A stretch of 64,000 bases of DNA, taken from a virus. Lineage: Duplodnaviria > Heunggongvirae > Uroviricota > Caudoviricetes. The stretch lies in the IMG/VR virus record IMGVR_UViG_3300028584_001240. The stretch is one strand, 5' to 3'. The notes under the pieces were generated by a model. It was not told where the DNA came from, ran no database searches, and saw only the letters and a program-made list of their open reading frames with translations. This document shows, in pieces, positions 3,394 to 62,600 of this stretch (the first letter of the stretch is position 1; each line of letters opens with the position of its first letter). The position numbers and the translations under genes were made by a program.

Positions 3394-3581
3394 AATATTT
3401 TTCTCCACGAAAATTTAATTGTGTTTGTGTATAGCTGATTTTTTAGTTAAATAGATAATGCCTCTAAAAGAAGCATAGAGCGGAGAAGTTCAATATCGAA
3501 CGGTGAAAGACTTTTGAAAGTGAAATGTTTTTGAAGCGTTCATGATGTAGTTCCTTTGATTGCGTTTCGTTTAATATGGCT

Positions 3582-16771: not shown

Positions 16772-18052
<1,281 letters not shown>

Positions 18053-18090: not shown

Positions 18091-18855
18091 TCAATAGCGT
18101 TCGATAGCCAAAACTGGATAGTAACTCATAATCTCTTCGTTACTTAATGCATTTACTTGAGTATGCGTTAAATTATATAGACGAATAATTGTACCTAAAA
18201 TTTGTGTCTGATGGAGGTCATTAAATTGAGTGGCAAAAGTATGCATCTGCATTTTAACTAAACTATCCTGTTCACTTTTCTTCTGAAACCAAAAATCCAT
18301 ACCAAATGACATGAAGTGAAATTCATCATTAAGATAAAATTGATTATTCTCAAATATAAATTTAGCTATTTTATAAACCTTAAAAGTCTCAAAAGGTGTT
18401 GTAACTTCGGCATGAATAGTTTTATCCATCATGAGCGTTTTCCATGAACCAAATTTCAATATTCTTTTTGCAAAAGGTAAAACATTTATGTTTGAGATGA
18501 TTTTTAGTTGCTCGCTGTATTCACTTGCAGCCTTCATAAATAATGAAAAAGAATCTGTGCTTTGTTCACTGCAGTGTTTAATAAATTTATTATAAAGTGG
18601 CAAATATTTTTTGTTATCAATATCTAAGGTAATGTTATTTACTACATAATCACCTTTTTTAACATTATTATTGATAGTAAATCGAAAAATAGGCTTAGCT
18701 TTACTCGTATTGACATCTAAGCAACAAATTGTCCTACCACCAGTATACTGACCCAACCCAGTGCGGGTATGGAAAATAACAGAGCCTTTCATATTTTTTT
18801 CAAAGAAAGGTCTTAACTCTGAGATCATTGCTTGACATAATTCATTATCGTTCAT
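18091..18855 (-). CDS. Tail-motif paralogue family member (sub-cluster A, 1 of 3)
   Basis: 254 aa. Ends ..IMSYYPVLAIERY (Ile replaces the Met). Shares KFIFENNQFYLNDEF with the next two genes. Confidence 0.8.
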   Translation of the reverse strand: MNDNELCQAMISELRPFFEKNMKGSVIFHTRTGLGQYTGGRTICCLDVNTSKAKPIFRFTINNNVKKGDYVVNNITLDIDNKKYLPLYNKFIKHCSEQSTDSFSLFMKAASEYSEQLKIISNINVLPFAKRILKFGSWKTLMMDKTIHAEVTTPFETFKVYKIAKFIFENNQFYLNDEFHFMSFGMDFWFQKKSEQDSLVKMQMHTFATQFNDLHQTQILGTIIRLYNLTHTQVNALSNEEIMSYYPVLAIERY

Positions 18856-18873
18856 TTTTTGTGTTTCCTATCA

Positions 18874-19632
18874 TTAATAACGTTCCATTGACAATACTGG
18901 GTAATAAGACTGGAACTGTTTATCAGTCCAAAGACCAAACTCAGTAAAAGGCACATCATACAGTTCATTAATTTTTGAAGTAATAATTTCATAGTGATCT
19001 TCATAAAATTTATGAGCAAATTCTTTAACTTCAACCTTCATGACATCTACGTCTTCTGTTTTTTGAGCAAACGTATAGTGTTGACCTAGTGAAGTAAAAC
19101 TAAACTTATCATGTAAATAAAATTTATTATTTTCAAAAATAAATTTAGGTGTCTTATGAATGTTGATAACTTCAAAAGGAGTTGTCATAATGGCATGGAC
19201 AGCAAGATCCACTCTAATATAGTCACCATCTGCAATCAACTTTCTTTCCTCAAATGGCAATACATCAATAGCAGTTATTAATTTTAAATGATCAGTCTGT
19301 TTAAGTGTTTCATTCATAAACAAATTAAATGAATTAGAACTGTATTGGCTACACACAGCTATGAATTTATTCAATATGTTTAAATGTTTTTCATCGTGGA
19401 CTTTTATTTCGATAGATTTAAACTTTTGATCATAGATCCTTCTGTCTTTCATAATAATAAAAGATAATAAAAGTTGTCCGGTAGAGGACTGCATATGTAA
19501 AATATCCAAAGAAATACCATTAGGCTTAGTATTATTTAATGAAGCCTTAAACATAACAGGATAATTAAGATGTCGAGCCGCAAACAAGCTTAAAACTGAT
19601 TTCATACTCTCAACCAGTTGTTCTGTTGTCAT
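18874..19632 (-). CDS. Tail-motif paralogue family member (sub-cluster A, 2 of 3)
   Basis: 252 aa. Ends ..FQSYYPVLSMERY. Contains PKFIFENNKFYLHDKF. Confidence 0.8.
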   Translation of the reverse strand: MTTEQLVESMKSVLSLFAARHLNYPVMFKASLNNTKPNGISLDILHMQSSTGQLLLSFIIMKDRRIYDQKFKSIEIKVHDEKHLNILNKFIAVCSQYSSNSFNLFMNETLKQTDHLKLITAIDVLPFEERKLIADGDYIRVDLAVHAIMTTPFEVINIHKTPKFIFENNKFYLHDKFSFTSLGQHYTFAQKTEDVDVMKVEVKEFAHKFYEDHYEIITSKINELYDVPFTEFGLWTDKQFQSYYPVLSMERY

Positions 19633-20385
19633 TTAACAAACCTCCATCGCTAATACAGGGTAATAAGACATCAATAATTCTGGCGACCAATTAGAAACTT
19701 CATCAACAGGTGTATTATAGAGTTCACTCAATGCAGTAGTTATATAGAGAAAACATTTATTATAGAATAAATCGGCAAACTTTGAAACGTAATCATTAAT
19801 ATATTTTTCATTATTTTCTGTTCTTTTCATGAACTTAAAATTACCAACTTCCGAAGAAAATACAAATTCAGGATTAATATAGAATTTATTTTTTTCAAAG
19901 ATAAATCTAGGTCTTTGTTCTATTTCAATAGTTTCAAAGGCTGTTTCAAGGTTTGCATAAATTTGTGGATCGATAACACCATGCAATTTTGATGAATACT
20001 GAATAGTGCTGGAATCTTGTAGTATATTGACAGCTTTGATAAATTTCAAATGATTGCTTTGTCTAATCATAGCGTCCACAAATAATGAAAATGAATTAAA
20101 CCCATCAACACAATATTCCTTTACAAACAAATTATAGATGCCTAAATATTTTTGGTCACCAATCACTATATTAATTGAATGTCTTTTAGCCTCATTTGTC
20201 GATTCAAGAATAAAACTGAAAATAATGCTTCCTGATGCAGTGAGGACACGAACATCAGGAAAAAGATTATGACTGCCAACATTACCATTAGTCCGTTTCT
20301 GGAAAAAGACAGGTTCGAGCACATTATCTTTAAAAAATGGCTTTATTTTGGCTATAATTGAATCACATAAATCATTTATATTCAT
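19633..20385 (-). CDS. Tail-motif paralogue family member (sub-cluster A, 3 of 3)
   Basis: 250 aa. Ends ..LMSYYPVLAMEVC. Contains PRFIFEKNKFYINPEF. Confidence 0.8.
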   Translation of the reverse strand: MNINDLCDSIIAKIKPFFKDNVLEPVFFQKRTNGNVGSHNLFPDVRVLTASGSIIFSFILESTNEAKRHSINIVIGDQKYLGIYNLFVKEYCVDGFNSFSLFVDAMIRQSNHLKFIKAVNILQDSSTIQYSSKLHGVIDPQIYANLETAFETIEIEQRPRFIFEKNKFYINPEFVFSSEVGNFKFMKRTENNEKYINDYVSKFADLFYNKCFLYITTALSELYNTPVDEVSNWSPELLMSYYPVLAMEVC

Positions 20386-31532: not shown

Positions 31533-32441
31533 TTAAACTTTGTGGTGACCCAACTCAGTAGATCTCAAACCGGCTACCAAACTAGTCAACTCTTTAAGTT
31601 CAGCGTTAGTGCCTGCGTCACTGATAATAAGTGAACCTTTACCGTTTGCAACATCACGTAATGTGTCAAATTTGTTCAATTGAAGAATCATAGCTACTGC
31701 CATTTCATTAGAGATATTCAACGAAGAAGAAAGATTTTCAATCGCTTCATTAAAACCACGACTAATAGCAAGACGTTGATCAGCAATACCTTCACCTTGT
31801 AATTTCTTAGACTCTTTTTGTGCCTGAGCTTCTGCAACAATAGTAATTCTTGAAGCTTCTGCACGGTTCTTGGCAGCTTCTTTTTCACGCTCAGATGCAG
31901 TTACTGAGTTGTATGAGTCTTGAACATCACTGGTTGGAATTGGTTCGTCAACGAGAACCGCAACAATTTTGAAACCAAATTCTTCCATCTTTTTAGACAA
32001 CACTTCTTCAATGACATCTTGAATTTCATCACGAACGCTATAAAGTTCCAAGAATGTTTTCTTACCCACTTCTGAACGAACAAGGTTGCTAACATAACTA
32101 ATGATTTGTGTTTCTGGATCATCAAGTTCATAAGCAGCTTTTTCAGCATCAAGTACATGGTACTGAACGTTTATTGGGTATTTAATAAATAAGTTGTCAT
32201 TAGTTTTCAATTCAAGCACAGTGCTCAATTGTAAAATGTTCAAAGGAACAACTTTATCAACAGCTTGAATCGGCCAAGGAAGTTTAAAAGACAAACCAGC
32301 TTCTTTGATTGCAGAAAACTTACCAAATGTAACAATTACTGAAACATGTTTGTTTTTGGTCAAAACAACACATGAGTAAACTAATAGTCCTATTAATCCT
32401 ACTAATAGTAGTATCATAAAAGCATTTCCGAACATATACAT
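31533..32441 (-). CDS. SPFH / band-7 (stomatin-prohibitin-HflK/C-like) membrane protein
   Basis: N-terminal TM helix (FMILLLVGLIGLLVYSCVV) followed by a typical SPFH core (VIVTFGKFSAIKEAGLSFKLPWPIQ..) and a coiled-coil EAAKNRAEASRI.. region. AGGAG SD. Confidence 0.85.
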   Translation of the reverse strand: MYMFGNAFMILLLVGLIGLLVYSCVVLTKNKHVSVIVTFGKFSAIKEAGLSFKLPWPIQAVDKVVPLNILQLSTVLELKTNDNLFIKYPINVQYHVLDAEKAAYELDDPETQIISYVSNLVRSEVGKKTFLELYSVRDEIQDVIEEVLSKKMEEFGFKIVAVLVDEPIPTSDVQDSYNSVTASEREKEAAKNRAEASRITIVAEAQAQKESKKLQGEGIADQRLAISRGFNEAIENLSSSLNISNEMAVAMILQLNKFDTLRDVANGKGSLIISDAGTNAELKELTSLVAGLRSTELGHHKV

Positions 32442-36879: not shown

Positions 36880-36907
36880 AAAAAAAGACCTGAAAAGGTC
36901 TTTTTTG
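36880..36907. terminator. Bidirectional terminator
   Basis: aaaaaAGACCtgaaaaGGTCTttttt. Confidence 0.8.
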
Positions 36908-36915
36908 TTGTGTTG

Positions 36916-37086
36916 TTATTTCTCGTAATGTTCATTCATCCGTTGAAGATCTTCTGGGCTTAAATCCTTACCATCCCAATCAAGAATACCAAGTCTATCA
37001 TCAATACGCCATTGAGATTCAGCGTCTAATTTACCATAGTTAGTTGGACGTTCAAAACTTTTTTCAAACATTTCTCTTTGATTCAT
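36916..37086 (-). CDS. Small hypothetical protein (56 aa; below the ORF-track cutoff)
   Basis: My translation is MNQREMFEKSFERPTNYGKLDAESQWRIDDRLGILDWDGKDLSPEDLQRMNEHYEK. GGAGAGcaaatATG SD. Followed by the terminator at 36880-36907. Confidence 0.6.
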   Translation of the reverse strand: MNQREMFEKSFERPTNYGKLDAESQWRIDDRLGILDWDGKDLSPEDLQRMNEHYEK

Positions 37087-37110: not shown

Positions 37111-37220
37111 TTAGGACCATCATGCTTTGCACCATGCACTGAAGGAGTCGAACCTTCTAGTTTAGGGACTCGAACCCCGCTTAACACAACAGACTACTGC
37201 CGTTCGCCATCACGTCCTAA
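37111..37220 (-). ncRNA. tRNA-like structured RNA candidate (two T-arm-like hairpins inside a 7-bp closing helix)
   Basis: Minus strand elements: 5'-TTAGGAC (37220-37214) pairs with GTCCTAA-3' (37117-37111). Inside are ACGGCAG-TAGT-CTGTTGT (7 bp), GGGG-TTCGAGT-CCCT (37178-37164) and GAAGG-TTCGACT-CCTTC (37157-37141). Both loops fit the T-loop consensus UUCRANY. I could not fold a canonical cloverleaf. Confidence 0.4.
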
Positions 37221-37255
37221 ATCTGGTGAATGGATGTAAACCATCTCATTCATGT

Positions 37256-38095: not shown

Positions 38096-38149
38096 AACAA
38101 GACCTCAAAAAAATAAACCTTATAGAATTATAAGATTTATGTAATAATG

Positions 38150-38224
38150 TTGAAGAGGAAGGATTTGAACCTCCGACATACCCGCCCAAAATGCAGGCTG
38201 CTCTACCCACTGAGCTACCCTTCA
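38150..38224 (-). tRNA. tRNA with non-canonical anticodon arm; anticodon most simply UUU (Lys); CCA not encoded
   Basis: Manual fold of the minus strand: acceptor TGAAGGG/CTCTTCA (U1-A72, one G-U); D arm GCTC-AGTGGGTA-GAGC; anticodon arm GCCTGC-ATTTTGG-GCGGGT (6 bp, or 5 bp with a 9-nt loop); variable ATGTC; T arm GGAGG-TTCAAAT-CCTTC; discriminator A. Confidence 0.7.
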
Positions 38225-38272
38225 AACTCTTTATAAAACAATAGAGCAACTAGGTTACTCTATTTTTTAAAT

Positions 38273-38349
38273 TGGTCGGAGTGGCAGGATTTGAACCTGC
38301 GGCATCTTGCTCCCAAAGCAAGCGGTCTACCGGGCTGACCTACACTCCG
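38273..38349 (-). tRNA. tRNA-Pro (anticodon UGG), CCA encoded
   Basis: Manual cloverleaf: CGGAGTG-TA-GGTC-AGCCCGGTA-GACC-G-CTTGC-TTTGGGA-GCAAG-ATGCC-GCAGG-TTCAAAT-CCTGC-CACTCCG-A-CCA. All stems are Watson-Crick. C1-G72 and G37 are typical of tRNA-Pro. Confidence 0.9.
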
Positions 38350-43885: not shown

Positions 43886-44614
43886 ATGAATGAGAAATAC
43901 ACAATAGTCCAGAATGATAGTTTAGAATTTGATGAATTGTTCGATGTCAGTCAAATTAATATGAGTTATTATTTTTCAAATTGGGTTAACAATGAGATTA
44001 AAATGACAAAAATTATTAAAAAACTTTATCTGGAAGGTATAAAAGTTGATATGATTAATATGTATGCAAATCCAGACAAGGGAGATCACCGTGAATATTG
44101 TGATGTTGAGAATCGTGATGATAGAATATATTACAATTTTATTAGTCAATTATTAAAACAATCTCATGCTAGAAATGACTTCAATTATTATGAACATTTA
44201 CCATTATCTGATCGAAAAGGTTATATGGATATTTGCTATCTCTTCAATAGGCCAAAAATAGAAATAAGATATCACACTAAAACAATTAGCACTATTTTTA
44301 CATTTACTGAGACTGGTTTGGTTATTGTATACAAAATTAACAATAATGACAGTAATAAAATGATGATAGAAATAAAAATCAATGAGAATAATGAAATATT
44401 ATCAACAATTGTTCACTTTAATGGAAAGATTTATAAAGAACCAGAAAAGATAAAATTAAGTCATAAACAGCTAGATTATCTTATTGCTTTATGTCATTAT
44501 GGCATGATAGAAGAGAAAGATTTTAATGTAGAGCCATATATTGATAAGGTGTTAGCAGAAGATTATAAAGATGTAATTAATTATTTTAAAGTAAAAGAGA
44601 TGACTTACATATGA
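43886..44614 (+). CDS. Tail-motif paralogue family member (sub-cluster E, 1 of 2)
   Basis: 242 aa. Ends ..VINYFKVKEMTYI. Shares SNKMM(I/L).I.IN, (K/Q)QLDYLI and NARNDF/HARSHL blocks with the next gene. Confidence 0.8.
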   Translation: MNEKYTIVQNDSLEFDELFDVSQINMSYYFSNWVNNEIKMTKIIKKLYLEGIKVDMINMYANPDKGDHREYCDVENRDDRIYYNFISQLLKQSHARNDFNYYEHLPLSDRKGYMDICYLFNRPKIEIRYHTKTISTIFTFTETGLVIVYKINNNDSNKMMIEIKINENNEILSTIVHFNGKIYKEPEKIKLSHKQLDYLIALCHYGMIEEKDFNVEPYIDKVLAEDYKDVINYFKVKEMTYI

Positions 44615-45405
44615 CAAATCAATATATCGTAAAAATACTCAGCTCAAAACATGTCTTTGATGAGACATCTAATAAGGGTGTTGAGAATAAATATTTAACT
44701 GTAAAAACAGAAAATGAAGACTTTAAAAAGTTATTGGATATTAGTGCTATAAACAGCAGATATTATTTTTCAGCGTGCTTAAATATTAAAGATAAAGTTA
44801 CTCAACATCTAAAAGAGACGAATAAAAAATTCGCAGACGTTAGACCTTATCACGCTCCTGATAAAGATGATTGCACGGAATATACAGATGTAAAAAATCA
44901 GAACTCTACTGTATACATGGATTTTATTGAGAACCTTGTTAAAAATGCACATGCAAGAAGTCATTTAACATTTGTGGACTATATTAAAGACATTCATAAA
45001 AAAGCTGACGTTATTTTTTCTCACTTTTTTGACAATGCTAAGATAAGTATCACCTATTTTACAAAACCTATCATGCTTTGTATGAATTTTGATAAAAATG
45101 GATTGAATATTGTCTATATGCTAAATAGTTGTGACAGCAATAAAATGATGTTAGACATTACTATTAATCACAACACTGAAATTATCTCAACAGAAGTTTA
45201 CTTTAATTTTAATAATACAAGATCAAATGAAACAGATATGATTACTTTAAACCATCAACAATTAGATTACCTTATTGTATTAAGTCATTATGCTGACGGT
45301 GAAGAGATTGATTTTATGGTTGAAAAATATGTTGATGACATTTTAGCTGAGAACTATCAAGATTTACTCGATTACATTAAAGTTAAAGAAATGATGCACA
45401 TCTAA
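44611..45405 (+). CDS. Tail-motif paralogue family member (sub-cluster E, 2 of 2)
   Basis: 264 aa. Ends ..LLDYIKVKEMMHI. ATGA overlap with the previous gene. Confidence 0.8.
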   Translation: MTNQYIVKILSSKHVFDETSNKGVENKYLTVKTENEDFKKLLDISAINSRYYFSACLNIKDKVTQHLKETNKKFADVRPYHAPDKDDCTEYTDVKNQNSTVYMDFIENLVKNAHARSHLTFVDYIKDIHKKADVIFSHFFDNAKISITYFTKPIMLCMNFDKNGLNIVYMLNSCDSNKMMLDITINHNTEIISTEVYFNFNNTRSNETDMITLNHQQLDYLIVLSHYADGEEIDFMVEKYVDDILAENYQDLLDYIKVKEMMHI

Positions 45406-46148: not shown

Positions 46149-47327
46149 ATGAACGACAAATTAAATGAAGAAAAGAGATACATGAAAGTCGCCAAAGAAA
46201 TGAACTTATTCATGTTGGCTGAAAGTGCAGGTGTTGTTTACTGGAAACCAGAAGGGCTTAAATTGTATGAGAATTTAAAATCTTTTATTCGTAAACACCA
46301 TGAAGACGCTGGTTATCTTGAAGTCAAGAGTCCATCCATTGTGGTGCCTAGCTTATTTGAGCAGTCTGGTCATATGGATAAATACAAAGATAACATGTTC
46401 TTTCTCAATTCATCAGAAGCCAGTAACTACGCTCTCCGTCCTATGAGCTGTCCCAACCATATCCTAATCTATCAATCAGAAAAAAGAAGCTACCGTGAAC
46501 TCCCATTACCAATATTTGAGTTTGGTGAGGTGTTTCGTAATGAAGCGTCTGGTGCATTACAAGTGTTATTCAGACAAAGACAATTCTGTCAGGATGATAG
46601 TCATGTGTTTGTGAATGAAGAAAATCTAATCAGTTCGGTCAATCAATACATACAGATGAGCCAAAAAGCGTATGAAGAACTCGGATTCAAAAAGATTAAA
46701 TACGCCATTGCGTTACGTCCAGAAAAAAGATTTGGTGATGACATCTTATGGGATAAAGCCGAAGAAGCCTTGCGAGAAGCCTGCAGAATGAATAATCTTG
46801 ATTTCGTAGAAAACGAAAATGACGGGGCTTTCTATGGCCCGAAACTAGAACTCCAAGTAGAAGACAAACTCGGCAGATCATGGCAATTAGGTGTGATACA
46901 GCTTGATTATGTTCTTCCAGAACGTTTTGGACTTGAATACATTGATGCCGATAACAAACCTAAGCGTCCTATTATTCTCCACCATGCCGTATTAGGTTCA
47001 CTTGAACGCATGATAGGGATCTTGTTGGAGTCCTTTGGTAAAGACATACCTGACTTCTTACACCCTATGAAATCAGTGGTTATTCCAGTATCCGAAAAAT
47101 CTATGGAGTATGCAAAGGTCGTATTCTCTCATATGGATAAGAAATCATCTAAACTGGATCAAAGTGCTGATTCATTAGGTAAGAAGATTCGATACTGGAA
47201 AGAACGTGGTGTTCCTGAGATCATTGTAGTCGGTGAAGCTGAACAAAGTAAATATGACAATGAAGGTGTGATTAGTTTTGTCGTCAATCTTGGTGCTGTC
47301 AAAGAAGTCAGAGAAATTAAGCCATAA
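46149..47327 (+). CDS. thrS: Threonyl-tRNA synthetase, catalytic plus anticodon-binding domains only (no N-terminal TGS/editing domains)
   Basis: 392 aa. Aligns by eye with E. coli ThrRS from about residue 242 to the end: RPMSCPNH, YRELPLPIFEFGEVFRNEASGAL..FRQRQFCQDDSHVF, GAFYGPKLE, ILHHAVLGSLERMIGILLE. The Zn ligands (Cys, His, His) are conserved. Confidence 0.93.
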   Translation: MNDKLNEEKRYMKVAKEMNLFMLAESAGVVYWKPEGLKLYENLKSFIRKHHEDAGYLEVKSPSIVVPSLFEQSGHMDKYKDNMFFLNSSEASNYALRPMSCPNHILIYQSEKRSYRELPLPIFEFGEVFRNEASGALQVLFRQRQFCQDDSHVFVNEENLISSVNQYIQMSQKAYEELGFKKIKYAIALRPEKRFGDDILWDKAEEALREACRMNNLDFVENENDGAFYGPKLELQVEDKLGRSWQLGVIQLDYVLPERFGLEYIDADNKPKRPIILHHAVLGSLERMIGILLESFGKDIPDFLHPMKSVVIPVSEKSMEYAKVVFSHMDKKSSKLDQSADSLGKKIRYWKERGVPEIIVVGEAEQSKYDNEGVISFVVNLGAVKEVREIKP

Positions 47328-48000: not shown

Positions 48001-48669
48001 TCAATAGTAATACATCTTAACAATTTGCTTTTCTGATTTAGTAAGCTTCTCTGTCGTGTCCTTTTTGTCAATAAGTTGTGAATAGTACCTAATAAAAAAT
48101 TCATTGTCAATCATTTTAACGGCATTCTCAAAACTATATTCATTGTTTTTTACAATAATATAAAGTTCTGGAAATTCTTTATACTTTTTAAATTTTAAAA
48201 CGATTTTTTGATAGATATTTCCATGTAACGAATGGTAAACATACACTGGATAGATTTCAATATGATCAAGGTTAGCATACACTGGGTTTTTCTTTTTATT
48301 TATTTCATCGCCTTTATTGATAAGACGAAGATGATTTGTAATCACCTTAAAAAATTTTTTAGCATGATAATTATCAACATTCTCAAAATAGACCTTTCTA
48401 GGCGATTCTTTTTTTGATAATAGATTAGGTTTAATGTCGAAAGAGCACTCATGCTCTGAGTCATGTTGGAAATAAGTCAGATTACCAATAGCATAAAATC
48501 TATCATAACCTGATCTTATTTTCGGTGTGCCATCTGGATTTACCGCTTCCTGAACAATAGTGTAACCAGAAGATATTTGATATCTATAATTAATATTACT
48601 GACGGAATGCTTTAAATAGTAATTAAAGGACGCCATATTGTCAGGTAAATCGAATTTTCCTATATCCAT
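48001..48669 (-). CDS. Tail-motif paralogue family member (sub-cluster B, 3 of 4)
   Basis: 222 aa. Ends ..LTKSEKQIVKMYYY. Confidence 0.8.
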   Translation of the reverse strand: MDIGKFDLPDNMASFNYYLKHSVSNINYRYQISSGYTIVQEAVNPDGTPKIRSGYDRFYAIGNLTYFQHDSEHECSFDIKPNLLSKKESPRKVYFENVDNYHAKKFFKVITNHLRLINKGDEINKKKNPVYANLDHIEIYPVYVYHSLHGNIYQKIVLKFKKYKEFPELYIIVKNNEYSFENAVKMIDNEFFIRYYSQLIDKKDTTEKLTKSEKQIVKMYYY

Positions 48670-48673
48670 AATA

Positions 48674-49375
48674 TTAATAGTAAACCATTTTAATCAACTC
48701 TTGTTCTTTTTTGTTAAAGAATTTGCCACGCTCAATTTTTTCACGATCAACAATACCATTATAATAACGTGTTTGAAATGTTTTTTCCATATCATCAATA
48801 GCGGCTAAAAATTTGTTGTCATCATTTAAAATAACAATTTTATGTTCTGGGTAGCCATTGCTTGCTTTAAATTTAAGGAGAGCACATTTACTAACGATTT
48901 GACTAATACGATCATATCTGTAGAAGCACCTAACCATAAGCGATTTTGAATCAAAATTAATAAGTTCACGTTTTTTATGCAAAAGAGTAGCTTCATTTAA
49001 AAGTTTAAGGTGCCGTTTTAATCTCACCCAAAATTCATCAACATGAAACCTATAAACATAATCAAATTTAATAGGTTTACCTGTATCATCTTTTGAAGTG
49101 AGCAGTGTAAAAGAGACTTCGAAATCAGAATCCCAATTACATTCACGACCATTAACAATACTGGCAACCTGATAAAATTTATCATAATACCGAATATGAC
49201 CACTGCCCCAACCAGAAGTTTCATAGACTCTAATTCTATGACCATCAGTCGTTAAGGGATAACGATGAACATAAATGGAATCATCACCATACTCATATTC
49301 GGCATTTGAAAATTTCGAAGAAAAGTATTTTGCAAGTTCAGTCGCTTTATTAATTTCAGTGGAAGGCATAAACAT
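48674..49375 (-). CDS. Tail-motif paralogue family member (sub-cluster B, 2 of 4)
   Basis: Ends ..FNKKEQELIKMVYY. Start moved from TTG 49414 to ATG 49375 (MFMPSTEINK..). HRYPLTTDGHRI matches CRYPLDKEGNRI of the next gene. Confidence 0.75.
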   Translation of the reverse strand: MFMPSTEINKATELAKYFSSKFSNAEYEYGDDSIYVHRYPLTTDGHRIRVYETSGWGSGHIRYYDKFYQVASIVNGRECNWDSDFEVSFTLLTSKDDTGKPIKFDYVYRFHVDEFWVRLKRHLKLLNEATLLHKKRELINFDSKSLMVRCFYRYDRISQIVSKCALLKFKASNGYPEHKIVILNDDNKFLAAIDDMEKTFQTRYYNGIVDREKIERGKFFNKKEQELIKMVYY

Positions 49376-49410
49376 AATAAGAGAACCTTTTTTTAATTTA
49401 AGTAAGTGTA

Positions 49411-50142
49411 TCAATAATAGGTCATTTTTACAAGTTCTTTTAAACGTTCATCCCATTTTGAAATATCCAATAGAGCATAAACATCATCAAAACTCATATT
49501 AGGATAAGCTTCTTTTATTTTGTCTTTGTAATACAGTTTAAAAAACTCAATGTCCATATTTTTTAACGTATTCTGTGTAGTTAACATATTATCCGTTACA
49601 TAGTAGACTGGAAGGATTTCACTAGATGATTTGTTACTTTTCATAAACTGAACAGCTAGAGTTCTTGAAATTTTTTTATTAAGCTGATCATATTTGAAAT
49701 TAAATTTAATTGAAAAGTCGTTGCAGACAATAAATTGATAATCGTCAGAAATATTTTTTTGATTGAGAAGTGTTAAGTGTTGATTAGTATGTTGCATAAA
49801 CAAATCAATCATTGGTGAAGATAAATCACCAAAACGTTCAGAATAAATATCATCGTATTTAGAAGATAATTCAAAAAAAAGTGAACTTGGTGTGTCACCT
49901 TTACCAACATGAGCAATAGTTTCCGACTTAGCGGCTGTGCCACCATACATTCCATAAGTAAAAGGAGCTTCTTTAAGTGCTTCAATAATCCGATTACCCT
50001 CTTTATCTAATGGATAACGACAGATTCCAATTGGATTAGTACCATACTCGTAGTGTTCATTTGTAAAGTTGTTTACAAAATAATCAAGGAATCCATACAA
50101 GGGAAACTGTTTCTTTTTTTCTTCATCAATGACTTCATTCAT
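49411..50142 (-). CDS. Tail-motif paralogue family member (sub-cluster B, 1 of 4)
   Basis: 243 aa. Ends ..WDERLKELVKMTYY. Confidence 0.8.
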   Translation of the reverse strand: MNEVIDEEKKKQFPLYGFLDYFVNNFTNEHYEYGTNPIGICRYPLDKEGNRIIEALKEAPFTYGMYGGTAAKSETIAHVGKGDTPSSLFFELSSKYDDIYSERFGDLSSPMIDLFMQHTNQHLTLLNQKNISDDYQFIVCNDFSIKFNFKYDQLNKKISRTLAVQFMKSNKSSSEILPVYYVTDNMLTTQNTLKNMDIEFFKLYYKDKIKEAYPNMSFDDVYALLDISKWDERLKELVKMTYY

Positions 50143-50928: not shown

Positions 50929-51489
50929 TTAAATGCAAATCATGCGAATAACTTCACGTTCTTCTGGTGTCATGCTTGCTAAGGGTTTAATCAATTCTTC
51001 TGGAATAGGTTGACCAAAATAGCTAATGTAATAATCTAACACTTTTCTTTCCATTTCTTCAATATTACTGTCATTTACTTCAAAAAGAGACATGTGATAA
51101 TCACCATATTCAAGCTCGTTAAATTCAAAGAGATGAACCTTTTGAATATGCCCAGATAAATTGATAAAATAATAAGCATACTCATTATAACATTCATCAT
51201 ATTTTTCAGGATTGAAAAACTCATCATAATCTTTAATGATATTATATAGCTTGGACTCAAATGAATATTTTTCTTCAAGATAATTTAAAAAATCACTCCA
51301 ATTGTGATGATCTGGGTTAATGCCAAAAGCATGACCTTCATCCAATGTGATGTGATCAACTAGATTGTGTTCATGGACAAGCTTTGGCCGGGTCAATCTA
51401 AAAGATTTTTTAGTAATCCCTTTCGAGATAAGAAAATCTTTGACCTGTTCATAAATTGTGTCATAGGAAAACTCTTTGGTTTCAATCAT
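50929..51489 (-). CDS. Tail-motif paralogue family member (sub-cluster C, 3 of 3)
   Basis: Ends ..MTPEEREVIRMICI. Start moved from GTG 51498 to ATG 51489 (AAGGTG upstream). YSFESKLYNIIKDYDEFFN matches the next gene. Confidence 0.8.
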   Translation of the reverse strand: MIETKEFSYDTIYEQVKDFLISKGITKKSFRLTRPKLVHEHNLVDHITLDEGHAFGINPDHHNWSDFLNYLEEKYSFESKLYNIIKDYDEFFNPEKYDECYNEYAYYFINLSGHIQKVHLFEFNELEYGDYHMSLFEVNDSNIEEMERKVLDYYISYFGQPIPEELIKPLASMTPEEREVIRMICI

Positions 51490-51555
51490 CAATATCACCT
51501 TTAAAATAGATGAATCATTATAGCATTATAATAACAAAAAATCCACACAATCTAT

Positions 51556-52122
51556 CTAAATATGAATCATTTCAAGTAACGATATTTCTTCTTTTGATAA
51601 TTGACTTAATGGTCTTTTTAATTCTTCTGGTGTGTTGGCATTTCCAAAATACTGAAAATAGTAATCGAAAATTCTAGTTTCTAATGAGCGTAAATTAGTG
51701 TCATCAAATTCAAGAAACTTCATATAATCATTGCCCAACTCAATGTCAGTAAAGTCAAATGAATAAACTTTTCTCAGTCTTTGATCCATATCAAAAGCAT
51801 AATGACCATTAACATAATAACAGTCTTTTCTCGGATGCTTATTAAAAAAGTCATCATAAAAACCCAGTGTTTTTTCAAGGCGGCTCTCAAAAGAATAACG
51901 ATGGTCTAAATATTCAGCCAAAGGTTCACAAAAAGGATGGTTCCATTTGATTTTAAAACAATGCCCCATCGAAATAGTTTGATTATCAAAAATAATTTCA
52001 CGAGTCAGAATCTCTGGAATTGCTGCACAGAAGTCTTCCTTTTTGATAGAATTAATCAAACAAAAAGTTTGAAGAGATTCAAAGACAGTCTCATCAGTAA
52101 ACTTATAGGTTTCAATCGTCAT
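51556..52122 (-). CDS. Tail-motif paralogue family member (sub-cluster C, 2 of 3)
   Basis: 188 aa. Ends ..LSKEEISLLEMIHI. Contains YSFESRLEKTLGFYDDFFN. Confidence 0.8.
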   Translation of the reverse strand: MTIETYKFTDETVFESLQTFCLINSIKKEDFCAAIPEILTREIIFDNQTISMGHCFKIKWNHPFCEPLAEYLDHRYSFESRLEKTLGFYDDFFNKHPRKDCYYVNGHYAFDMDQRLRKVYSFDFTDIELGNDYMKFLEFDDTNLRSLETRIFDYYFQYFGNANTPEELKRPLSQLSKEEISLLEMIHI

Positions 52123-55043: not shown

Positions 55044-56918
55044 TCAGACTGCAATGTATTTTGCAACAAATTCAGCTTCGGTCAAGATTTCAATATCAAC
55101 ACCTTTCGCTTTCAAGGCTTGGGCGTCAGCAAGTTTACTACCAGCACTTTCACCGTAAACAAGAATTTGTGTTGTCTTGCTTGCTTTGCTTTGGATCTTC
55201 GCACCTTTCGATGTGAAGAACGCTTCAATCTCTTTACGTGAGTAGCTAACCATTGTACCAGTTACCACCACGTTCTTACCAGAGAATGGACTATCATTGT
55301 CAACAACTGCTTGTGAAGACAATTCAAGATTGAACAAAGGACGCAAGGTATTAATCAATTCAAGTTTTTCTTGAATACCGGCTGGAATGAGAACGCTATT
55401 CACTGGGCCGTAACCTTTCATCTTAATCAACTTACCTTCTTCGACTTCATGCAGTGCGTCGATATTGAAGACTTTAAGCAACTTTTTAGAGTCGCCTTTA
55501 CCAAGACTCGAAATACCGAAGGCTGCAAGGAAACGCCAGTCTTCAATTTGACTTGATTTACTGGTTTCAAGAGCGGCGACCAAGTTAGGGCTTTCACCTT
55601 TACCAAAACCAGCGGTCAAGAAATCCTGCTCTTTCATTGCGTAAATCTTTTCCAAGGTGTCGAAACCTGCTTCAACCAACTTAGCGACTGTTTTACCACC
55701 AAAACCATCGTTGTTAGCCAATGTTGCAAAGAAGTGCAACAAGGTCTGGCTAATTTGTTCCGAGCAACCTGAATGGTTAGGGCAGAAAAGGAAGTGACTT
55801 TCCCATTCAAGCACAGTGTTACAGCAAGGGCAGTTCGTTGGAACTTCGTATTCAGCTTGGGTAATCACTTTTTCAATTTTAGGGATTACTTCACCACTAC
55901 GAATGATTTCAATGACGGCACCTACACCCATTTTGTTCGTGCGAACGTTGTTCATGTGGTGAGCGGTTACGTTACTAATCGTTGCACCAGACACAAGAAC
56001 AGGAGCCACAGCAAGAACCGGCGTGATAGTGCCAGTGCGACCTACTTGAAGTTTAACATCAAGCACAGTAGTCTGTGCAGTTTCACCACGTTCTTTAAAT
56101 GCACACTGCCATTTATTGTGATGGTTGTTGTAGCCCATGTATTCTTTGATTTCTGGAACAATGGATTCAATCACGAAACCGTCAATCAAGTAAGGAATAG
56201 CAGCACGCAAATCGTTGTTGATTTGTACAAGGTTAGCAAGAATGTCATCAGCCGTGCCAACATAAGCCTGCAACGTGGTGTAAGGCACAAAATGAATCGC
56301 ACCGTCATCCAAAGCCTTCTGAGTTTCAGGGCGTGTATCTTCCTGAGACAATACGCTGCTCATCATGTTACGTGGATGTGGGAACATCGAAGCAAGGTTC
56401 TCTGCGAAATAAGTCTTGTCAATCACCAACTCGCCACGACCTTCTGCATTTTCTTTACGAATAACACCTTTATCGTAGATGTAAGTAATGTCGTTACCAC
56501 GAATGCCATCACCACGAGTAGATAGTTTTTCTGTTTCATGGCAACCCGCAAAACCATCAAGTTTGCAAGTAACTTTATACATGGATTTTACATGAAGATC
56601 CTGAGCTACGTCTTCAACACGTTTAAACCATTTAGCCAAGGCTTCGGAAGTGTAGAATTTTTCGGTTGACAGCATAGGGGAAGAGTGAGTAATAGCGTTT
56701 TCGCCAACTTCTTCCAATTCAATTTCATCAAACCATGTTGATTCAGGGAATTTAGCACGAAAATCTTCAACAACAGCGTCATAATTTTCATCGGCAATTG
56801 GATCAAGACCAAACAATGCAGTCTTTGGCAACGATTTACGGTAGCAATCGTTATAATCTTCAAGCAGCTCAATGAAAGCAGCTTCGGTTGTTGGGTATTT
56901 GATGTCATTGATATTCAT
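55044..56918 (-). CDS. ligA: NAD-dependent DNA ligase
   Basis: 624 aa. Adenylation KxDG (TCKLDGFAG), OB fold, four-Cys zinc finger (CPCCNTVL..CPNHSGC), HhH region and a C-terminal BRCT (GKNVVVTGTM..). GGAG SD. Confidence 0.96.
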   Translation of the reverse strand: MNINDIKYPTTEAAFIELLEDYNDCYRKSLPKTALFGLDPIADENYDAVVEDFRAKFPESTWFDEIELEEVGENAITHSSPMLSTEKFYTSEALAKWFKRVEDVAQDLHVKSMYKVTCKLDGFAGCHETEKLSTRGDGIRGNDITYIYDKGVIRKENAEGRGELVIDKTYFAENLASMFPHPRNMMSSVLSQEDTRPETQKALDDGAIHFVPYTTLQAYVGTADDILANLVQINNDLRAAIPYLIDGFVIESIVPEIKEYMGYNNHHNKWQCAFKERGETAQTTVLDVKLQVGRTGTITPVLAVAPVLVSGATISNVTAHHMNNVRTNKMGVGAVIEIIRSGEVIPKIEKVITQAEYEVPTNCPCCNTVLEWESHFLFCPNHSGCSEQISQTLLHFFATLANNDGFGGKTVAKLVEAGFDTLEKIYAMKEQDFLTAGFGKGESPNLVAALETSKSSQIEDWRFLAAFGISSLGKGDSKKLLKVFNIDALHEVEEGKLIKMKGYGPVNSVLIPAGIQEKLELINTLRPLFNLELSSQAVVDNDSPFSGKNVVVTGTMVSYSRKEIEAFFTSKGAKIQSKASKTTQILVYGESAGSKLADAQALKAKGVDIEILTEAEFVAKYIAV

Positions 56919-60912: not shown

Positions 60913-61692
60913 TCAAATATAAGACATTCTGATAAGATCAAGCTCTCTTTTATTAAACATCTTATTGGTTCTTAAAAAATGAGTAAAGCTACTACCATAC
61001 AGTTTAGTCACACTTATCTCACATGTTTTAAGAATATCACTCAGTAAAATAGATTCCAGTTCACCTGATTTAAAGACAAAATAATGCACATCATAAATAT
61101 TAACATCGTGTAAAGTGGTGCCATCTTCTTGAAGTATGCTTTTAATGGGGCGTTCAACCACCATAGGCACTGTGCCATTAATACCTTTCTGCAAAGGTCT
61201 GCAGTCTTCCAAGAAATACCAAATTTGGTCGATTTTAAACGTGGTATCATCAATTTCATATGACATGCTTTTTAAATAAAGATCTTTTAACAATCTTTTA
61301 GGTTTTGCAAATTTAATCATCCGTGGCAATCCTGACGGACTAAATGCTATGTTATATGACAAAGAATATTCGCTTCCTTTTTCAAAGGATGCACTAGTTA
61401 TTACAAAATAGGATTGCTCTTTTTTATCAACAACCGCCGAGGCAAGTTCAAGGACACATCCTTTGTTATTACTATATCTATAAATAATTTCATTAACTTC
61501 AAACCCAATATCATTAAAAAATTGATTGAGTTCATCCGTGTCCAAGTCAAACTTCAAGCAATAATTTGAACTTTCAATAATATTCATAACCAGCGGTTTG
61601 TATTCTTCACAGTTTTCTTTATTGATTAGATAATGATCAACATAATGAAATTCAATTCTAGATAAGTAATCTTCTTCAGTAGCTTCTGGCAT
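60913..61692 (-). CDS. Tail-motif paralogue family member (sub-cluster D)
   Basis: 259 aa. Ends ..FNKRELDLIRMSYI. LQKGINGTVPMVVERPIK and VNIYDVHYFVF are shared with 61714.. and 63338... Confidence 0.8.
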   Translation of the reverse strand: MPEATEEDYLSRIEFHYVDHYLINKENCEEYKPLVMNIIESSNYCLKFDLDTDELNQFFNDIGFEVNEIIYRYSNNKGCVLELASAVVDKKEQSYFVITSASFEKGSEYSLSYNIAFSPSGLPRMIKFAKPKRLLKDLYLKSMSYEIDDTTFKIDQIWYFLEDCRPLQKGINGTVPMVVERPIKSILQEDGTTLHDVNIYDVHYFVFKSGELESILLSDILKTCEISVTKLYGSSFTHFLRTNKMFNKRELDLIRMSYI

Positions 61693-61713
61693 ATTTAACT
61701 CCCTAAATCGTAT

Positions 61714-62484
61714 TTAGATATACATCATCTCAATGATATCCCGCTCTCTTTTAGTAAACATTTTAGACATAGTAAGAAAATCAGTGTAATCAGTGCCATA
61801 CATTCTAGCACAACTAAAATCACACTGTGTTAATATATCAATCAGTCGAACTTCCTTAGATTTACCATGTACAGTATAGTAAACATCATAGATATTTACA
61901 TTGTAAAATGACTGAGTGTTTTCAACAATTCTTTTTAATGGATGTTCAATAATCATTGTTATATAGCCATTAATACCTTTTTGTAGCTTTCTGTTATCGT
62001 TAAAACAATAACCAATTTGGTCGATCTTAAGAGTATCACAGTCTATGATATAATGAATAGATTTAAGGGTAAGTCCTTTCAATATTTTGTTTGCTGATTT
62101 AAATGTTCGAGAAACAGCAACACCTTGTAAATTGTAAGACGTAAAATAACTGTGAACGTAACGATCATTCTTAGTAAACTCAACCCATTGCAAGACATAG
62201 CGGTCTTGTACAACCTCACCCTCAATGACAGCAGTTAAATCAATCTCACATCCTTGGTTGTCATTGAATTTCAACGTATTTTCTTCAGATAAAAATCCAG
62301 ATAATGAGAGAAATTCATTCAATTGTGCTCGTTTTAAATCAAATTTTATGATGTAAGAATAATCTTTCAACATCTCAATGAGATTGTCTTTGTATTCATG
62401 CATATTATTTTCGTTAATAATATGTGTCTCCAAATAACGATATTCAATTTTGGCTTCTAACTTGGTAGGTTTTAGTGTATTCAT
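61714..62484 (-). CDS. Tail-motif paralogue family member (sub-cluster D)
   Basis: Ends ..FTKRERDIIEMMYI. Start moved from GTG 62496 to ATG 62484, so that IEYRY aligns with IEFHY of 60913... Confidence 0.8.
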   Translation of the reverse strand: MNTLKPTKLEAKIEYRYLETHIINENNMHEYKDNLIEMLKDYSYIIKFDLKRAQLNEFLSLSGFLSEENTLKFNDNQGCEIDLTAVIEGEVVQDRYVLQWVEFTKNDRYVHSYFTSYNLQGVAVSRTFKSANKILKGLTLKSIHYIIDCDTLKIDQIGYCFNDNRKLQKGINGYITMIIEHPLKRIVENTQSFYNVNIYDVYYTVHGKSKEVRLIDILTQCDFSCARMYGTDYTDFLTMSKMFTKRERDIIEMMYI

Positions 62485-62600
62485 AACAATCGTCACTCAA
62501 TAATTCTTTGTATATTATACTATTTTACTTAATAAATCAATTGAAATGTTGATTTTCTTTTTTAATTTGTTATCCTATGCCTAAGAAAAGGATACTGACC

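What the first reader, a model, noticed from the sequence alone, without database searches (positions are those of the whole stretch)
37111..37220. ~110-nt tRNA-like RNA candidate with two consensus T-loops, downstream of the tRNA genes
The 169-nt gap between two minus-strand genes contains no ORF. It contains a perfect 7-bp terminal helix (TTAGGAC/GTCCTAA) enclosing three or four hairpins. Two of them, GGGG-UUCGAGU-CCCU and GAAGG-UUCGACU-CCUUC, have loops that match the tRNA T-loop consensus (UUCRANY). A third is a 7-bp stem with a UAGU tetraloop.

I could not make either T arm part of a standard cloverleaf, because no matching acceptor strands exist. The element is therefore either a pair of decayed tRNA genes or a dedicated structured RNA.

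T4 encodes stable RNAs of unknown function in its tRNA cluster, and bacterial and phage Y-RNA-like YrlA RNAs carry tRNA-mimicking modules. A decoy or processing-enzyme-binding role is conceivable.
Basis: seen in the sequence. Interest (0 to 1): 0.5.

Follow-up and report, generated by a model that had tools for sequence, protein, structure and literature searches.

The report
Phage tRNA-like RNA with two T-loops
The 110-base stretch is a real, strongly conserved small structured RNA gene of a family found in more than a hundred phage sequences, often inside tRNA gene clusters. It copies the 'elbow' of a tRNA but cannot decode, matches no catalogued RNA family, and its function is unknown.

Summary
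On the minus strand at 37220-37111 there is a 7-bp closing helix and two hairpins with tRNA-type T-loops. GGTTCRANTCC occurs 4 times in the window (2 in tRNAs, 2 here) against 0.12 expected.

It is not a pair of decayed tRNAs. Pattern scans and a covariance model found about 100 distinct homologues in viral, metagenome and MAG contigs, and in four cultured Caulobacter phages. They share a ~96-nt core: a D-loop-like hairpin, helix P1, two T-loop hairpins (T1, T2) and a near-invariant junction GCA-N-GGUGCAA.
- 22 of 25 pairs show compensatory changes, and 85.8% of cells pair, against 38-49% in slid controls.
- The base before GG in the D-like loop covaries with position 59 of the T2 loop, as in a tRNA elbow.
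- 65 of 107 unique instances have a tRNA within 2 kb, and 338 of 339 such tRNAs are on the same strand, often 0-16 nt away.
- Some copies sit inside a full tRNA-like scaffold.
- ARAGORN, Rfam 15, T4 rnaC/rnaD and the literature give no match.

Most likely this is a stable, non-decoding tRNA-elbow mimic released by tRNA-processing enzymes. Its target is unknown.

The parts
37228..37251 (-). Upstream mini-helix GAAUGAG-(10-nt loop)-UCCAUUC, starting 4 nt after the stop codon of the 279-aa ORF. It is followed by ACCA (37227-37224) and GAU. Possible processing signal; accessory to the core.
   Evidence: Read. In ortholog L209 the stem is a perfect GAAUGAG/CUCAUUC with a different loop, and ACCAGAU is identical. 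A role as an RNase P-type hairpin-RCCA substrate is inference only.
37214..37220 (-). P0 5' strand (UUAGGAC) of the closing, acceptor-like helix.
   Evidence: Perfect 7-bp complement of 37117-37111 and identical in L209. Across the family a flanking helix of at least 7 bp occurs in 21 of 96 loci against 8.8 expected; at least 9 bp occurs in 7 against 1.0 expected. P0 is therefore an optional element.
37192..37208 (-). D-loop-like hairpin GGC-GAACGGCAGUA-GUC.
   Evidence: The loop GAACGGYAGUA, closed by covarying 3-4-bp stems, recurs in L004, L014, L127, L132, L202 and L211. Other members carry a 5-bp stem with an NCGGN loop. All 5 modelled stem pairs show compensatory changes. The loop base before GG covaries with T2 loop position 59.
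37184..37190 (-). P1 5' strand (GUUGUGU).
   Evidence: Pairs with 37125-37119 (GCAUGAU), with 4 G-U pairs in the window. All 7 P1 pairs show compensatory changes across 98 sequences.
37179..37183 (-). Junction J12 (UAAGC; family consensus GCAGC or GAAGC).
   Evidence: Alignment columns 41 and 43 covary with the two bases 3' of T1 (C-A 53 and A-G 31; G-A 87 and A-G 3). This suggests non-canonical pairs that extend T1 into the junction.
37164..37178 (-). T1 hairpin GGGG-UUCGAGU-CCCU (4-bp stem, tRNA-type T-loop).
   Evidence: 99.2% of cells paired and 3 of 4 pairs with compensatory changes. A change of loop position 59 from G to U goes with J31 GCA to GCU in L086, L087, L091 and Caulobacter phage RW. 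That link is tentative.
37138..37161 (-). T2 hairpin ACU-A-GAAGG-UUCGACU-CCUUC-AGU (8 bp in the window with a bulged A; 9 modelled pairs in the family, with a conserved internal mismatch).
   Evidence: 7 of 9 pairs show compensatory changes. The outer pairs switch A-U to G-C (44 against 43 sequences). The middle pair is unpaired in 65 of 98 sequences.
37126..37137 (-). Junction J31 GCAUGGUGCAAA, the most conserved single-stranded segment. UGCAA fits the 5-nt T-loop pattern.
   Evidence: GCA and GGUGCAA are invariant in alignments A1 and A2, though partly by construction of the search patterns. Hits found without that pattern differ: Caulobacter phage RW has GCUUGGCAGCAAAA and a second copy in L135 has GAAUGGGUAUUAAAA. 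The T-loop reading is inference.
37119..37125 (-). P1 3' strand (GCAUGAU).
   Evidence: See the P1 5' strand. Between the window and L209, G-U changes to A-U at one pair and to A-C at the terminal pair.
37111..37117 (-). P0 3' strand (GUCCUAA), followed by a U-rich tract and the Shine-Dalgarno sequence GGAGAG of the 56-aa ORF.
   Evidence: Identical in L209.
38149..38349 (-). tRNA-Lys(UUU) and tRNA-Pro(UGG), upstream on the same strand. Probably the same transcription unit as the element.
   Evidence: ARAGORN and Rfam. A promoter-like TTGACA-17-TATTAT site lies at 38391-38363 (minus). A terminator-like hairpin at 36906-36881 (minus) follows the 56-aa ORF. Co-transcription is inferred.

Best explanation
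The element is one gene copy of a widespread phage small-RNA family that I could not find catalogued. The core is about 96 nt; in the window it is 110 nt with a closing helix.

**Fold**
- A three-way junction joins P1, T1 and T2.
- The long T2 hairpin folds back so that its tRNA-type T-loop docks on the GG-containing loop of a 5' D-like hairpin. This reproduces a tRNA elbow.
- The T-loop of the short T1 hairpin packs against the conserved junction GCA-N-GGUGCAA.

**Expression**
- The RNA is transcribed with tRNAs or neighbouring genes.
- It is cut out by the enzymes that mature tRNAs: RNase P at the 5' end of a downstream tRNA, and 3'-end processing of an upstream tRNA.
- In some phages it is carried inside a complete acceptor/D-arm/T-arm scaffold.

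**Proposed action**
- It has no anticodon arm and in most members no acceptor end, so it cannot decode.
- I propose it acts in trans as a stable tRNA-elbow mimic. It would engage a factor that recognises tRNA shape, for example a tRNA-modifying or tRNA-processing enzyme, the ribosome, or a tRNA-directed host defence.

**Shown and inferred**
- Shown: family membership, the secondary structure, the covariation between the D-like loop and the T2 loop, and the tRNA-array context.
- Inferred: co-transcription, processing, stability, action in trans, and the identity of the partner.
- My confidence is about 0.95 that this is a selected structured RNA of this family, and about 0.35 for the elbow-mimic mode of action.
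For: **Homologues**
- The covariance model R1 scores the window at 67.4 bits (E = 1.4e-16, a single hit).
- R1 gives 97 strong hits in 100 sources, at 53-98 bits.

**Structure**
- RNAalifold on a plain MAFFT alignment finds P1, T1 and T2. Twelve of its 18 pairs show compensatory changes.
- On alignment A3, 85.8% of cells pair against 38-49% when partners are slid. Twenty-two of 25 pairs change on both sides. The covariation score is 0.646 against 0.09-0.14 for the controls.
- Tertiary signal: a CGG loop goes with UUCGACU in T2, and a non-C base goes with U or A there. T1 does not follow this rule.

**Selection**
- The element is 93.6% identical to its ortholog on a 520-kb contig (L209). The flanking ORF is 71.5% identical and the spacer 66.7%.

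**Context**
- 65 of 107 unique instances have a tRNA within 2 kb, and 338 of 339 such tRNAs are on the same strand.
- Sixteen have a tRNA ending within 60 nt upstream, and 17 have one starting within 60 nt downstream, several of them within 16 nt.
- Eleven variants sit in a scaffold with a covarying 7-bp acceptor stem, a class-II-like D arm and a T arm.
- No protein family is shared within 4 kb on either side, beyond one closely related phage clade.
Against: - No expression, processing or modification data were available, so stability and action in trans are inferred.
- About 40% of instances have no tRNA within 2 kb of the DNA held and lie 20-50 nt upstream of an ORF with a Shine-Dalgarno sequence, as in the window. 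That also fits a cis role.
- In the window sequence alone the consensus fold scores -22.0 kcal/mol against -36.7 for the minimum-energy fold, and P1 there has four G-U pairs.
- A3 was aligned to the model, which favours the model.
- The search patterns fixed the T-loop and GGUGCAA sequences, so their invariance is partly by construction.
- The loop-loop covariation is not corrected for phylogeny.
- T-loops are also ordinary building blocks of riboswitches and RNase P, so the tRNA likeness could be purely architectural.
Confidence: 0.45

Rival explanations
1. It acts in cis as a tRNA-shaped punctuation mark. The element recruits RNase P or 3'-processing enzymes to cut polycistronic transcripts, and the compact fold then protects the end of the flanking tRNA or mRNA. 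It has no function of its own as a free RNA.
For: - Members lie between co-oriented tRNAs or ORFs at very short spacing.
- In the window and in L209 a conserved 7-bp hairpin followed by ACCA lies directly upstream. By my knowledge that resembles a minimal RNase P substrate.
- Some members have a full tRNA scaffold.
Against: - Inside dense tRNA arrays the neighbouring tRNAs already supply the cleavage sites.
- An ordinary tRNA or a simple hairpin would do this job. Near-invariant junction bases and two tertiary contacts kept across distant phages point to a more specific role.
- Most members lack any acceptor-like helix.
Confidence: 0.18
2. It is a cis-regulatory 5' leader, such as a riboswitch or a tRNA-sensing element, that controls the gene immediately downstream. 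In the window this is the 56-aa ORF at 36916-37086.
For: - The window and many stand-alone members sit 20-55 nt upstream of an ORF with a Shine-Dalgarno sequence on the same strand.
- The conserved junction could be a binding pocket.
Against: - The downstream ORFs are unrelated to one another.
- Many members have a tRNA, not an ORF, 3-16 nt downstream.
- No terminator/antiterminator pair or Shine-Dalgarno-sequestering helix is visible. In the window the Shine-Dalgarno sequence lies 17 nt beyond P0 and is unpaired.
- No Rfam riboswitch or T-box model matches.
Confidence: 0.1
3. It is a tRNA-elbow binder rather than a mimic. T1 and the T-loop-like UGCAA in the junction would form a double T-loop platform, like those of T-box Stem I, RNase P and the ribosomal L1 stalk. 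The platform would stack on the elbow of a tRNA or of another copy of the RNA, capturing tRNAs or forming multimers.
For: - There are three T-loop-type pentamers within 60 nt.
- There is a tentative link between T1 loop position 59 and J31 (G-A 83, U-U 4, plus phage RW).
- That double T-loop modules dock tRNA elbows comes from my knowledge of the published structures.
Against: - Interdigitation of the T-loops was not tested.
- The T1-J31 signal rests on very few independent changes.
- Known platforms use bulge or terminal-loop pentamers, not 7-nt tRNA-type hairpin loops.
Confidence: 0.1
4. It is a small catalytic RNA, for example a self-cleaving ribozyme that helps to process tRNA arrays.
For: - The size fits, and it has a three-way junction with near-invariant single-stranded bases.
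- It occurs in phage tRNA regions. From my own knowledge, small ribozymes are also found in phage genomes.
Against: - No Rfam ribozyme model matches.
- The conserved bases are largely accounted for by T-loops and their contacts.
- RNase P sites on the flanking tRNAs make self-cleavage unnecessary.
Confidence: 0.04
5. It is two decayed tRNA genes, or leftover tRNA 3' halves from phage attachment sites, with no function of its own.
For: - Both T arms match the tRNA consensus.
- ARAGORN finds no intact tRNA here, and the best Rfam match is tRNA-Sec at 16 bits.
Against: - About 100 divergent copies keep the same non-tRNA architecture with compensatory changes.
- The element is far more conserved than its flanks (93.6% against 67-72%).
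- There is one copy per locus in a fixed orientation relative to tRNAs.
- The neighbour analysis found no shared gene family. Integrases were not searched for specifically.
Confidence: 0.01

Closest known systems
Transfer RNA (Rfam RF00005)
   Same: - Two hairpins with the tRNA T-arm consensus GGUUCRANUCC.
- A hairpin loop with the GG of a D-loop.
- Covariation between the base before GG and T-loop position 59, at the place where positions 16/17 and 59/60 meet in a tRNA elbow.
- Genes sit in tRNA arrays at tRNA-like spacing and on the same strand.
- Some members have a real acceptor stem, D arm and T arm around the core.
   Different: - No anticodon arm, and in most members no acceptor stem or CCA.
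- A three-way junction with a 12-nt conserved strand takes the place of the cloverleaf centre.
- Not called by ARAGORN.
- Rfam reports no tRNA match at this site. The clan's best hit is tRNA-Sec at 16 bits, against a threshold of 47.
Bacterial and phage Y RNA-like YrlA (Chen et al. 2014, PMC4201824)
   Same: - A non-coding RNA of about 100 nt with a tRNA-like D/T module.
- Known to be modified and cut by tRNA enzymes.
- Reported in some phages.
   Different: - YrlA runs V, T, acceptor-like stem-loop, D inside a long Ro60-binding stem, has one T arm, and is encoded next to rsr.
- Here the order is D-like, P1, T1, T2.
- There is no Ro-binding stem and no shared neighbouring protein.
- Rfam gives no hit.
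Phage T4 species 1 and species 2 RNAs (rnaC, rnaD)
   Same: - Small RNAs annotated as stable, with no function given.
- Encoded at the end of a phage tRNA cluster on the tRNA strand.
- rnaC ends in a T arm.
   Different: The family model finds nothing in rnaC or rnaD beyond a generic T arm at 11 bits. Sizes and sequences differ. This is an analogy of context, not homology.
Double T-loop tRNA-elbow docking modules (T-box Stem I distal end, RNase P specificity domain, ribosomal L1 stalk)
   Same: Several T-loop-type pentamers lie close together, including one (UGCAA) in a junction strand. T-loops are used for long-range contacts.
   Different: There is no evidence here for interdigitation. There is no specifier loop or antiterminator and no RNase P core. 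The loops are 7-nt tRNA-type hairpin loops.
ROOL and GOLLD RNAs
   Same: Orphan structured RNAs of phages and prophages that lie near tRNA genes. A ROOL RNA and a sub-threshold GOLLD match lie within about 2 kb of the element in L020 and L004.
   Different: Their Rfam models are 574 and 416 positions long, against about 96 nt here, and the folds are unrelated. No model match falls on the element itself.

Membership tests
tRNA | Cloverleaf with a 7-bp acceptor stem, an anticodon arm with a 7-nt loop, and a T arm abutting the 3' acceptor strand. | tested here: not met
   ARAGORN calls only tRNA-Lys and tRNA-Pro in the window. Rfam lists no tRNA match at the site at E up to 10; the best clan member is tRNA-Sec at 16.4 bits (gathering score 47). 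The conserved fold has no anticodon arm.
tRNA | T-loop/D-loop elbow. | tested here: met
   Both T-loops match UUCRANY. The D-like loop carries GG. Its preceding base covaries with T2 position 59 (C-C 59, U-U 10, U-A 6, A-U 5). This rests on covariation only, with no 3D data.
tmRNA | tRNA-like domain with a CCA-ending acceptor stem plus a tag-peptide reading frame. | tested here: not met
   ARAGORN, which also searches for tmRNA, reports none. Rfam gives no hit. At 96-110 nt with no internal ORF, the element is too small.
YrlA / bacterial Y RNA | Terminal stem that binds Ro60 (Rsr), and a gene next to rsr (TROVE-domain protein). | tested here: not met
   Thirteen of the 14 window ORFs of at least 300 aa were scanned against Pfam, along with seven shorter ones, and none has a TROVE domain; 31533-32441 (302 aa) was not scanned. 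No protein family is shared within 4 kb across 107 loci. The smaller window ORFs were not all scanned.
YrlA / bacterial Y RNA | Module order V, T, acceptor-like stem-loop, D, with a single T arm. | tested here: not met
   Here the order is D-like, P1, T1, T2, with two T arms, against the description in PMC4201824.
T4 rnaC / rnaD | Sequence and structure similarity to the T4 species 1 and 2 RNAs. | tested here: not met
   cmsearch with filters off over the T4 tRNA region gives only an 11-bit T-arm fragment in rnaC and nothing in rnaD.
T-box leader | Stem I with a specifier loop, an antiterminator or anti-sequestrator, and a downstream aminoacyl-tRNA synthetase or amino-acid gene. | tested here: not met
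   Rfam gives no T-box hit at E up to 10. The downstream genes are unrelated or are tRNAs.
   The window scores 67.4 bits (E = 1.4e-16) over the full model, positions 1-97. The window was one of the 71 training sequences. Its ortholog L209, which was not, scores 69.7 bits.
Any Rfam 15 family | Score at or near a family's gathering threshold. | tested here: not met
   Nothing at the site in the gathering scan of the window. Two short-region scans at E up to 10 also found nothing, nor did a scan at E up to 1 of 12 homologous loci.

The most novel reading that the evidence does not exclude
This may be a new class of phage RNA that builds a free-standing tRNA elbow from a rearranged set of tRNA parts and also carries a second T-loop module (T1 plus the junction UGCAA). 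Phages would use it to interfere with, or exploit, a host system that reads tRNA shape. Examples are titrating a tRNA-directed defence nuclease or a modification or processing enzyme, occupying a ribosomal tRNA site, or docking onto the elbows of real tRNAs. The copies mounted in a complete acceptor/D/T scaffold would then be natural 'tRNA-scaffolded' versions of the same effector.
Probability: 0.25. Interest if true: 0.85.

Novelty: new variant of a known kind. Interest (0 to 1): 0.62.

Why it matters
- Phage tRNA clusters are usually read as codon-supply or anti-defence devices made only of tRNAs. This adds a conserved non-decoding passenger with tRNA-type tertiary contacts.
- It occurs in phages of gut and rumen Clostridia and Bacteroidota, in Caulobacter phages, and in contigs of about 350-520 kb.
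- It gives a defined ~96-nt target for structure determination. The fold is a tRNA elbow assembled in a different strand order.
- It is a candidate for how phages manipulate tRNA-recognising machinery.
- Because the family is present in cultured Caulobacter vibrioides CB15 phages (RW, KcrB, RLK, GB2A), the question can be tested directly by genetics and RNA biochemistry.
- For annotation, a covariance model would label an RNA gene that tRNA finders and Rfam currently miss.

Tried and rejected
- **Standard finders:** ARAGORN and Rfam (gathering and E-value modes) on the window and on homologous loci found nothing at the site.
- **Near-identity search:** megablast of the surrounding 2 kb against GenBank phages matched only the tRNA-Pro.
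- **Decayed tRNAs:** rejected on the comparative data.
rejected as a conserved feature.
- **T4 rnaC/rnaD homology:** rejected.
- **YrlA:** rejected on module order and context.
- **A dedicated partner protein nearby:** clustering of 2,081 neighbouring ORFs found no family beyond one phage clade.
- **A common downstream gene:** none found.
- **Other collections:** blastn found no match in plasmids or in 5,426 E. coli genomes.
- **Literature:** five full-text searches, including the motif sequences themselves, gave nothing relevant.
- **The 224-motif paper:** its main text has no mention of T-loops.
- **The IMG/VR catalogue of 8,495 unnamed candidate RNAs:** it could contain this motif, but its supplements are not held.
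- **One recent preprint** could not be opened.
- **Tandem ORFs of about 250 aa in the window:** I suspected one large paralogue family, but BLASTP shows only small groups of 2-3.

Full report
**1. The observation**

On the minus strand the RNA reads as follows (window coordinates in brackets):
- UUAGGAC (37220-37214)
- GUGAU
- GGC-GAACGGCAGUA-GUC (37208-37192)
- U
- GUUGUGU (37190-37184)
- UAAGC
- GGGG-UUCGAGU-CCCU (37178-37164)
- AA
- ACUAGAAGG-UUCGACU-CCUUCAGU (37161-37138)
- GCAUGGUGCAAA (37137-37126)
- GCAUGAU (37125-37119)
- G
- GUCCUAA (37117-37111)

The 169-nt gap lies between the 279-aa ORF and the 56-aa ORF. tRNA-Lys and tRNA-Pro lie about 930 nt upstream on the same strand. GGTTCRANTCC occurs four times in the window: twice in those tRNAs and twice here. 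The chance expectation is 0.12. The single-sequence fold is only weakly better than shuffles (z = -2.1). ARAGORN and Rfam find nothing at the site.

**2. It is a family**

An exact-pattern scan for two closely spaced T-arm cores in viral contigs returned 10 loci. Nine of them share far more than the pattern.

I built a covariance model from 71 diverse members. It finds one copy in the window (67.4 bits, E = 1.4e-16). It gives 97 strong hits, at 53-98 bits, in 100 sources.

BLASTN of the element against 50,697 GenBank phage records found only four Caulobacter vibrioides phages. In phage RW the model scores 71 bits at an unannotated site 55 nt after tRNA-Val. Plasmids and E. coli genomes gave no match.

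The genome hits are mostly gut or rumen Clostridia and other Bacillota MAGs. There are also Bacteroides, Muribaculaceae, Treponema and Spirosoma MAGs. In the one isolate, Mordavella massiliensis, the neighbouring genes are phage-like.

**3. Structure**

The conserved core has these parts, in order:
- a 5' hairpin whose loop contains GG (NCGGN, or GAACGGYAGUA as in the window);
- helix P1;
- junction J12 (GCAGC or GAAGC);
- T1, with a 4-bp stem and loop UUCGAGU;
- AA;
- T2, with a 9-pair stem that carries a conserved mismatch, and loop UUCGANU;
- junction J31 (GCA-N-GGUGCAA-A/U-A);
- the P1 3' strand.

RNAalifold on a plain MAFFT alignment recovers P1, T1 and T2, and 12 of its 18 pairs show compensatory changes. 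On the 99-row model alignment, 85.8% of cells pair, against 38-49% when partners are slid. Twenty-two of 25 pairs change on both sides. The covariation score is 0.646 against 0.09-0.14 for the controls.

Mutual information among unpaired columns adds three signals:
- The base before GG in the D-like loop follows position 59 of the T2 loop (C with C; U, A or G with U or A). It does not follow T1.
- Two non-canonical pairs extend T1 into the junction (C-A alternating with A-G, and G-A alternating with A-G).
- More weakly, T1 position 59 is linked to the A of GCA in J31. Phage RW shares this change.

From established tRNA structure, positions 16/17 and 59/60 meet at the elbow beside G18-Psi55 and G19-C56. 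I therefore read the T2 and D-like contact as a tRNA-type elbow.

Three caveats apply. The model alignment leans towards the model. The search patterns fixed the T-loop and GGUGCAA sequences. The loop-loop signal is not corrected for phylogeny.

**4. The window copy**

An orthologous locus sits on a 520-kb metagenome contig (L209), with the same flanking genes. The element is 93.6% identical there. The upstream ORF is 71.5% identical, the spacer 66.7% and the downstream ORF 85.8%.

The minimum-energy folds of the two orthologs differ from each other. The consensus fold of the window sequence scores -22.0 kcal/mol against -36.7 for its minimum-energy fold. Thermodynamic prediction on the single sequence is therefore misleading here.

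The closing helix P0 is optional in the family. Flanks form at least 7 bp in 21 of 96 loci against 8.8 expected, and at least 9 bp in 7 against 1.0 expected.

**5. Context**

Of 107 unique instances, 65 have a tRNA within 2 kb, and 338 of the 339 such tRNAs are on the element's strand. Sixteen have a tRNA ending within 60 nt upstream, and 17 have one starting within 60 nt downstream; several of these gaps are 16 nt or less. The element therefore occupies a tRNA-sized slot in tRNA arrays.

The remaining instances lie between ORFs, typically 20-55 nt before an ORF with a Shine-Dalgarno sequence. These ORFs are unrelated to one another. No neighbouring protein family is shared beyond one phage clade.

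Eleven variants carry the core inside a tRNA-like scaffold. The scaffold has a covarying 7-bp acceptor stem, then UG, a GCGG-AAUAGGUAGA-CGC D arm, and a 6-bp T arm with loop UGCAAAU.

In the window a promoter-like site precedes tRNA-Pro, and a terminator-like hairpin follows the 56-aa ORF. This fits one transcription unit containing tRNAs, ORF, element and ORF.

**6. Mechanism**

- Shown: a selected, compactly folded RNA with tRNA-type T-loop contacts that travels with tRNA genes.
- Inferred: it is co-transcribed and is released by RNase P and by 3'-end maturation of its neighbours, or of its own scaffold. It accumulates as a stable RNA and acts as a non-decoding tRNA-elbow mimic towards a factor that recognises tRNA shape.
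- Rivals: a cis punctuation or processing element, a cis-regulatory leader, an elbow-binding double T-loop platform, a ribozyme, and decayed tRNAs. They are weighed in the rival-explanations section of this report. Only decayed tRNAs is firmly excluded.

**7. Comparison with known families and novelty**

The element fails the tests for tRNA, tmRNA, YrlA, T-box and T4 rnaC/rnaD membership. It resembles YrlA and the T4 stable RNAs in kind. It shares the phage tRNA neighbourhood with ROOL and GOLLD.

Five full-text searches found no description of it. A bulk catalogue of unnamed candidate viral RNAs could include it, but I could not check that.

I rate it a new variant of a known kind, namely tRNA-mimicking small RNAs. 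Its interest is moderate to high because of its breadth, its well-supported tertiary contacts, its tRNA-scaffolded forms and its presence in a tractable phage-host pair.

Noticed in passing
window 2134-3408 (-), 16772-18043 (-), 46149-47327 (+), 55044-56918 (-): The window encodes three aminoacyl-tRNA synthetases: TyrRS, SerRS, and a class II enzyme with an HGTP anticodon-binding domain. It also encodes an NAD-dependent DNA ligase. The best phage matches to the TyrRS, at 46-49% identity, include jumbo phages of about 350-380 kb such as Pectobacterium phage CBB and Cronobacter phage GAP32. The ortholog contig is 520 kb. The window therefore looks like part of a very large phage genome rich in translation genes.
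   Followed up: partly
window 37224-37251 (-): A 7-bp hairpin (GAAUGAG/UCCAUUC) followed by ACCA lies right after the stop codon of the 279-aa ORF and 3 nt before the element. In L209 the stem is perfect, the loop differs, and ACCAGAU is identical. By my knowledge a hairpin followed by RCCA resembles a minimal RNase P substrate.
   Followed up: partly
L209, about 30 nt into the ortholog of window ORF 36916-37086: The ortholog of the 56-aa ORF has an in-frame TAA at codon 12 (MNQREMFEKSF*RPTNY...). Downstream codons are still conserved with mostly synonymous changes. Possible explanations are a sequencing error, a downstream start, readthrough or recoding.
   Followed up: no
L018 about 2360-2545, L039 about 690-845, and L104, L113, L135, L139, L142, L149, L174, L189, L213: These are tRNA-like genes that ARAGORN misses. 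Each has a covarying 7-bp acceptor stem, a class-II-type D arm (GCGG-AAUAGGUAGA-CGC) and a 6-bp T stem with the unusual loop UGCAAAU. The anticodon arm is replaced by the core motif. L051 and L081 appear to have related scaffolds with other inserts.
   Followed up: partly
L135 555-652 (+); L064 14726-14798 (-): These are divergent relatives. L135 holds a second copy with junction GAAUGGGUAUUAAAAC (27 bits). L064 holds a one-T-hairpin version inside an RNA with a GGGGCGU/ACGCUCC stem ending in ACCA (28 bits). The family is probably broader than the patterns used here could retrieve.
   Followed up: partly
L020 2102-2714; L004 4727-5123: A ROOL RNA (302 bits) and a GOLLD-like match (73 bits, below threshold) lie within about 2 kb of the element in two phage tRNA regions.
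   Followed up: no
L012 9155-9230, also L003, L019, L038, L215: ARAGORN calls tRNAs with a CUA anticodon (labelled tRNA-Pyl), which could be amber suppressors. In L038 and L215 this tRNA ends 1-2 nt before the element, and L012 has the same arrangement. These phages might read TAG as a sense codon.
   Followed up: no
window 18091-20385, 48001-50142, 43886-45405, 50929-52122, 60913-62496: Long runs of co-oriented ORFs of about 200-270 aa have no Pfam or PHROG match where tested. BLASTP detects only small tandem paralogue groups of 2-3 members.
   Followed up: partly
window 36881-36906: A symmetric 11-bp hairpin is flanked by A-runs and T-runs. It scores as a terminator on both strands and lies between the convergent 140-aa ORF (plus strand) and 56-aa ORF (minus strand). 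It caused the weak sRNA-like Rfam matches.
   Followed up: no
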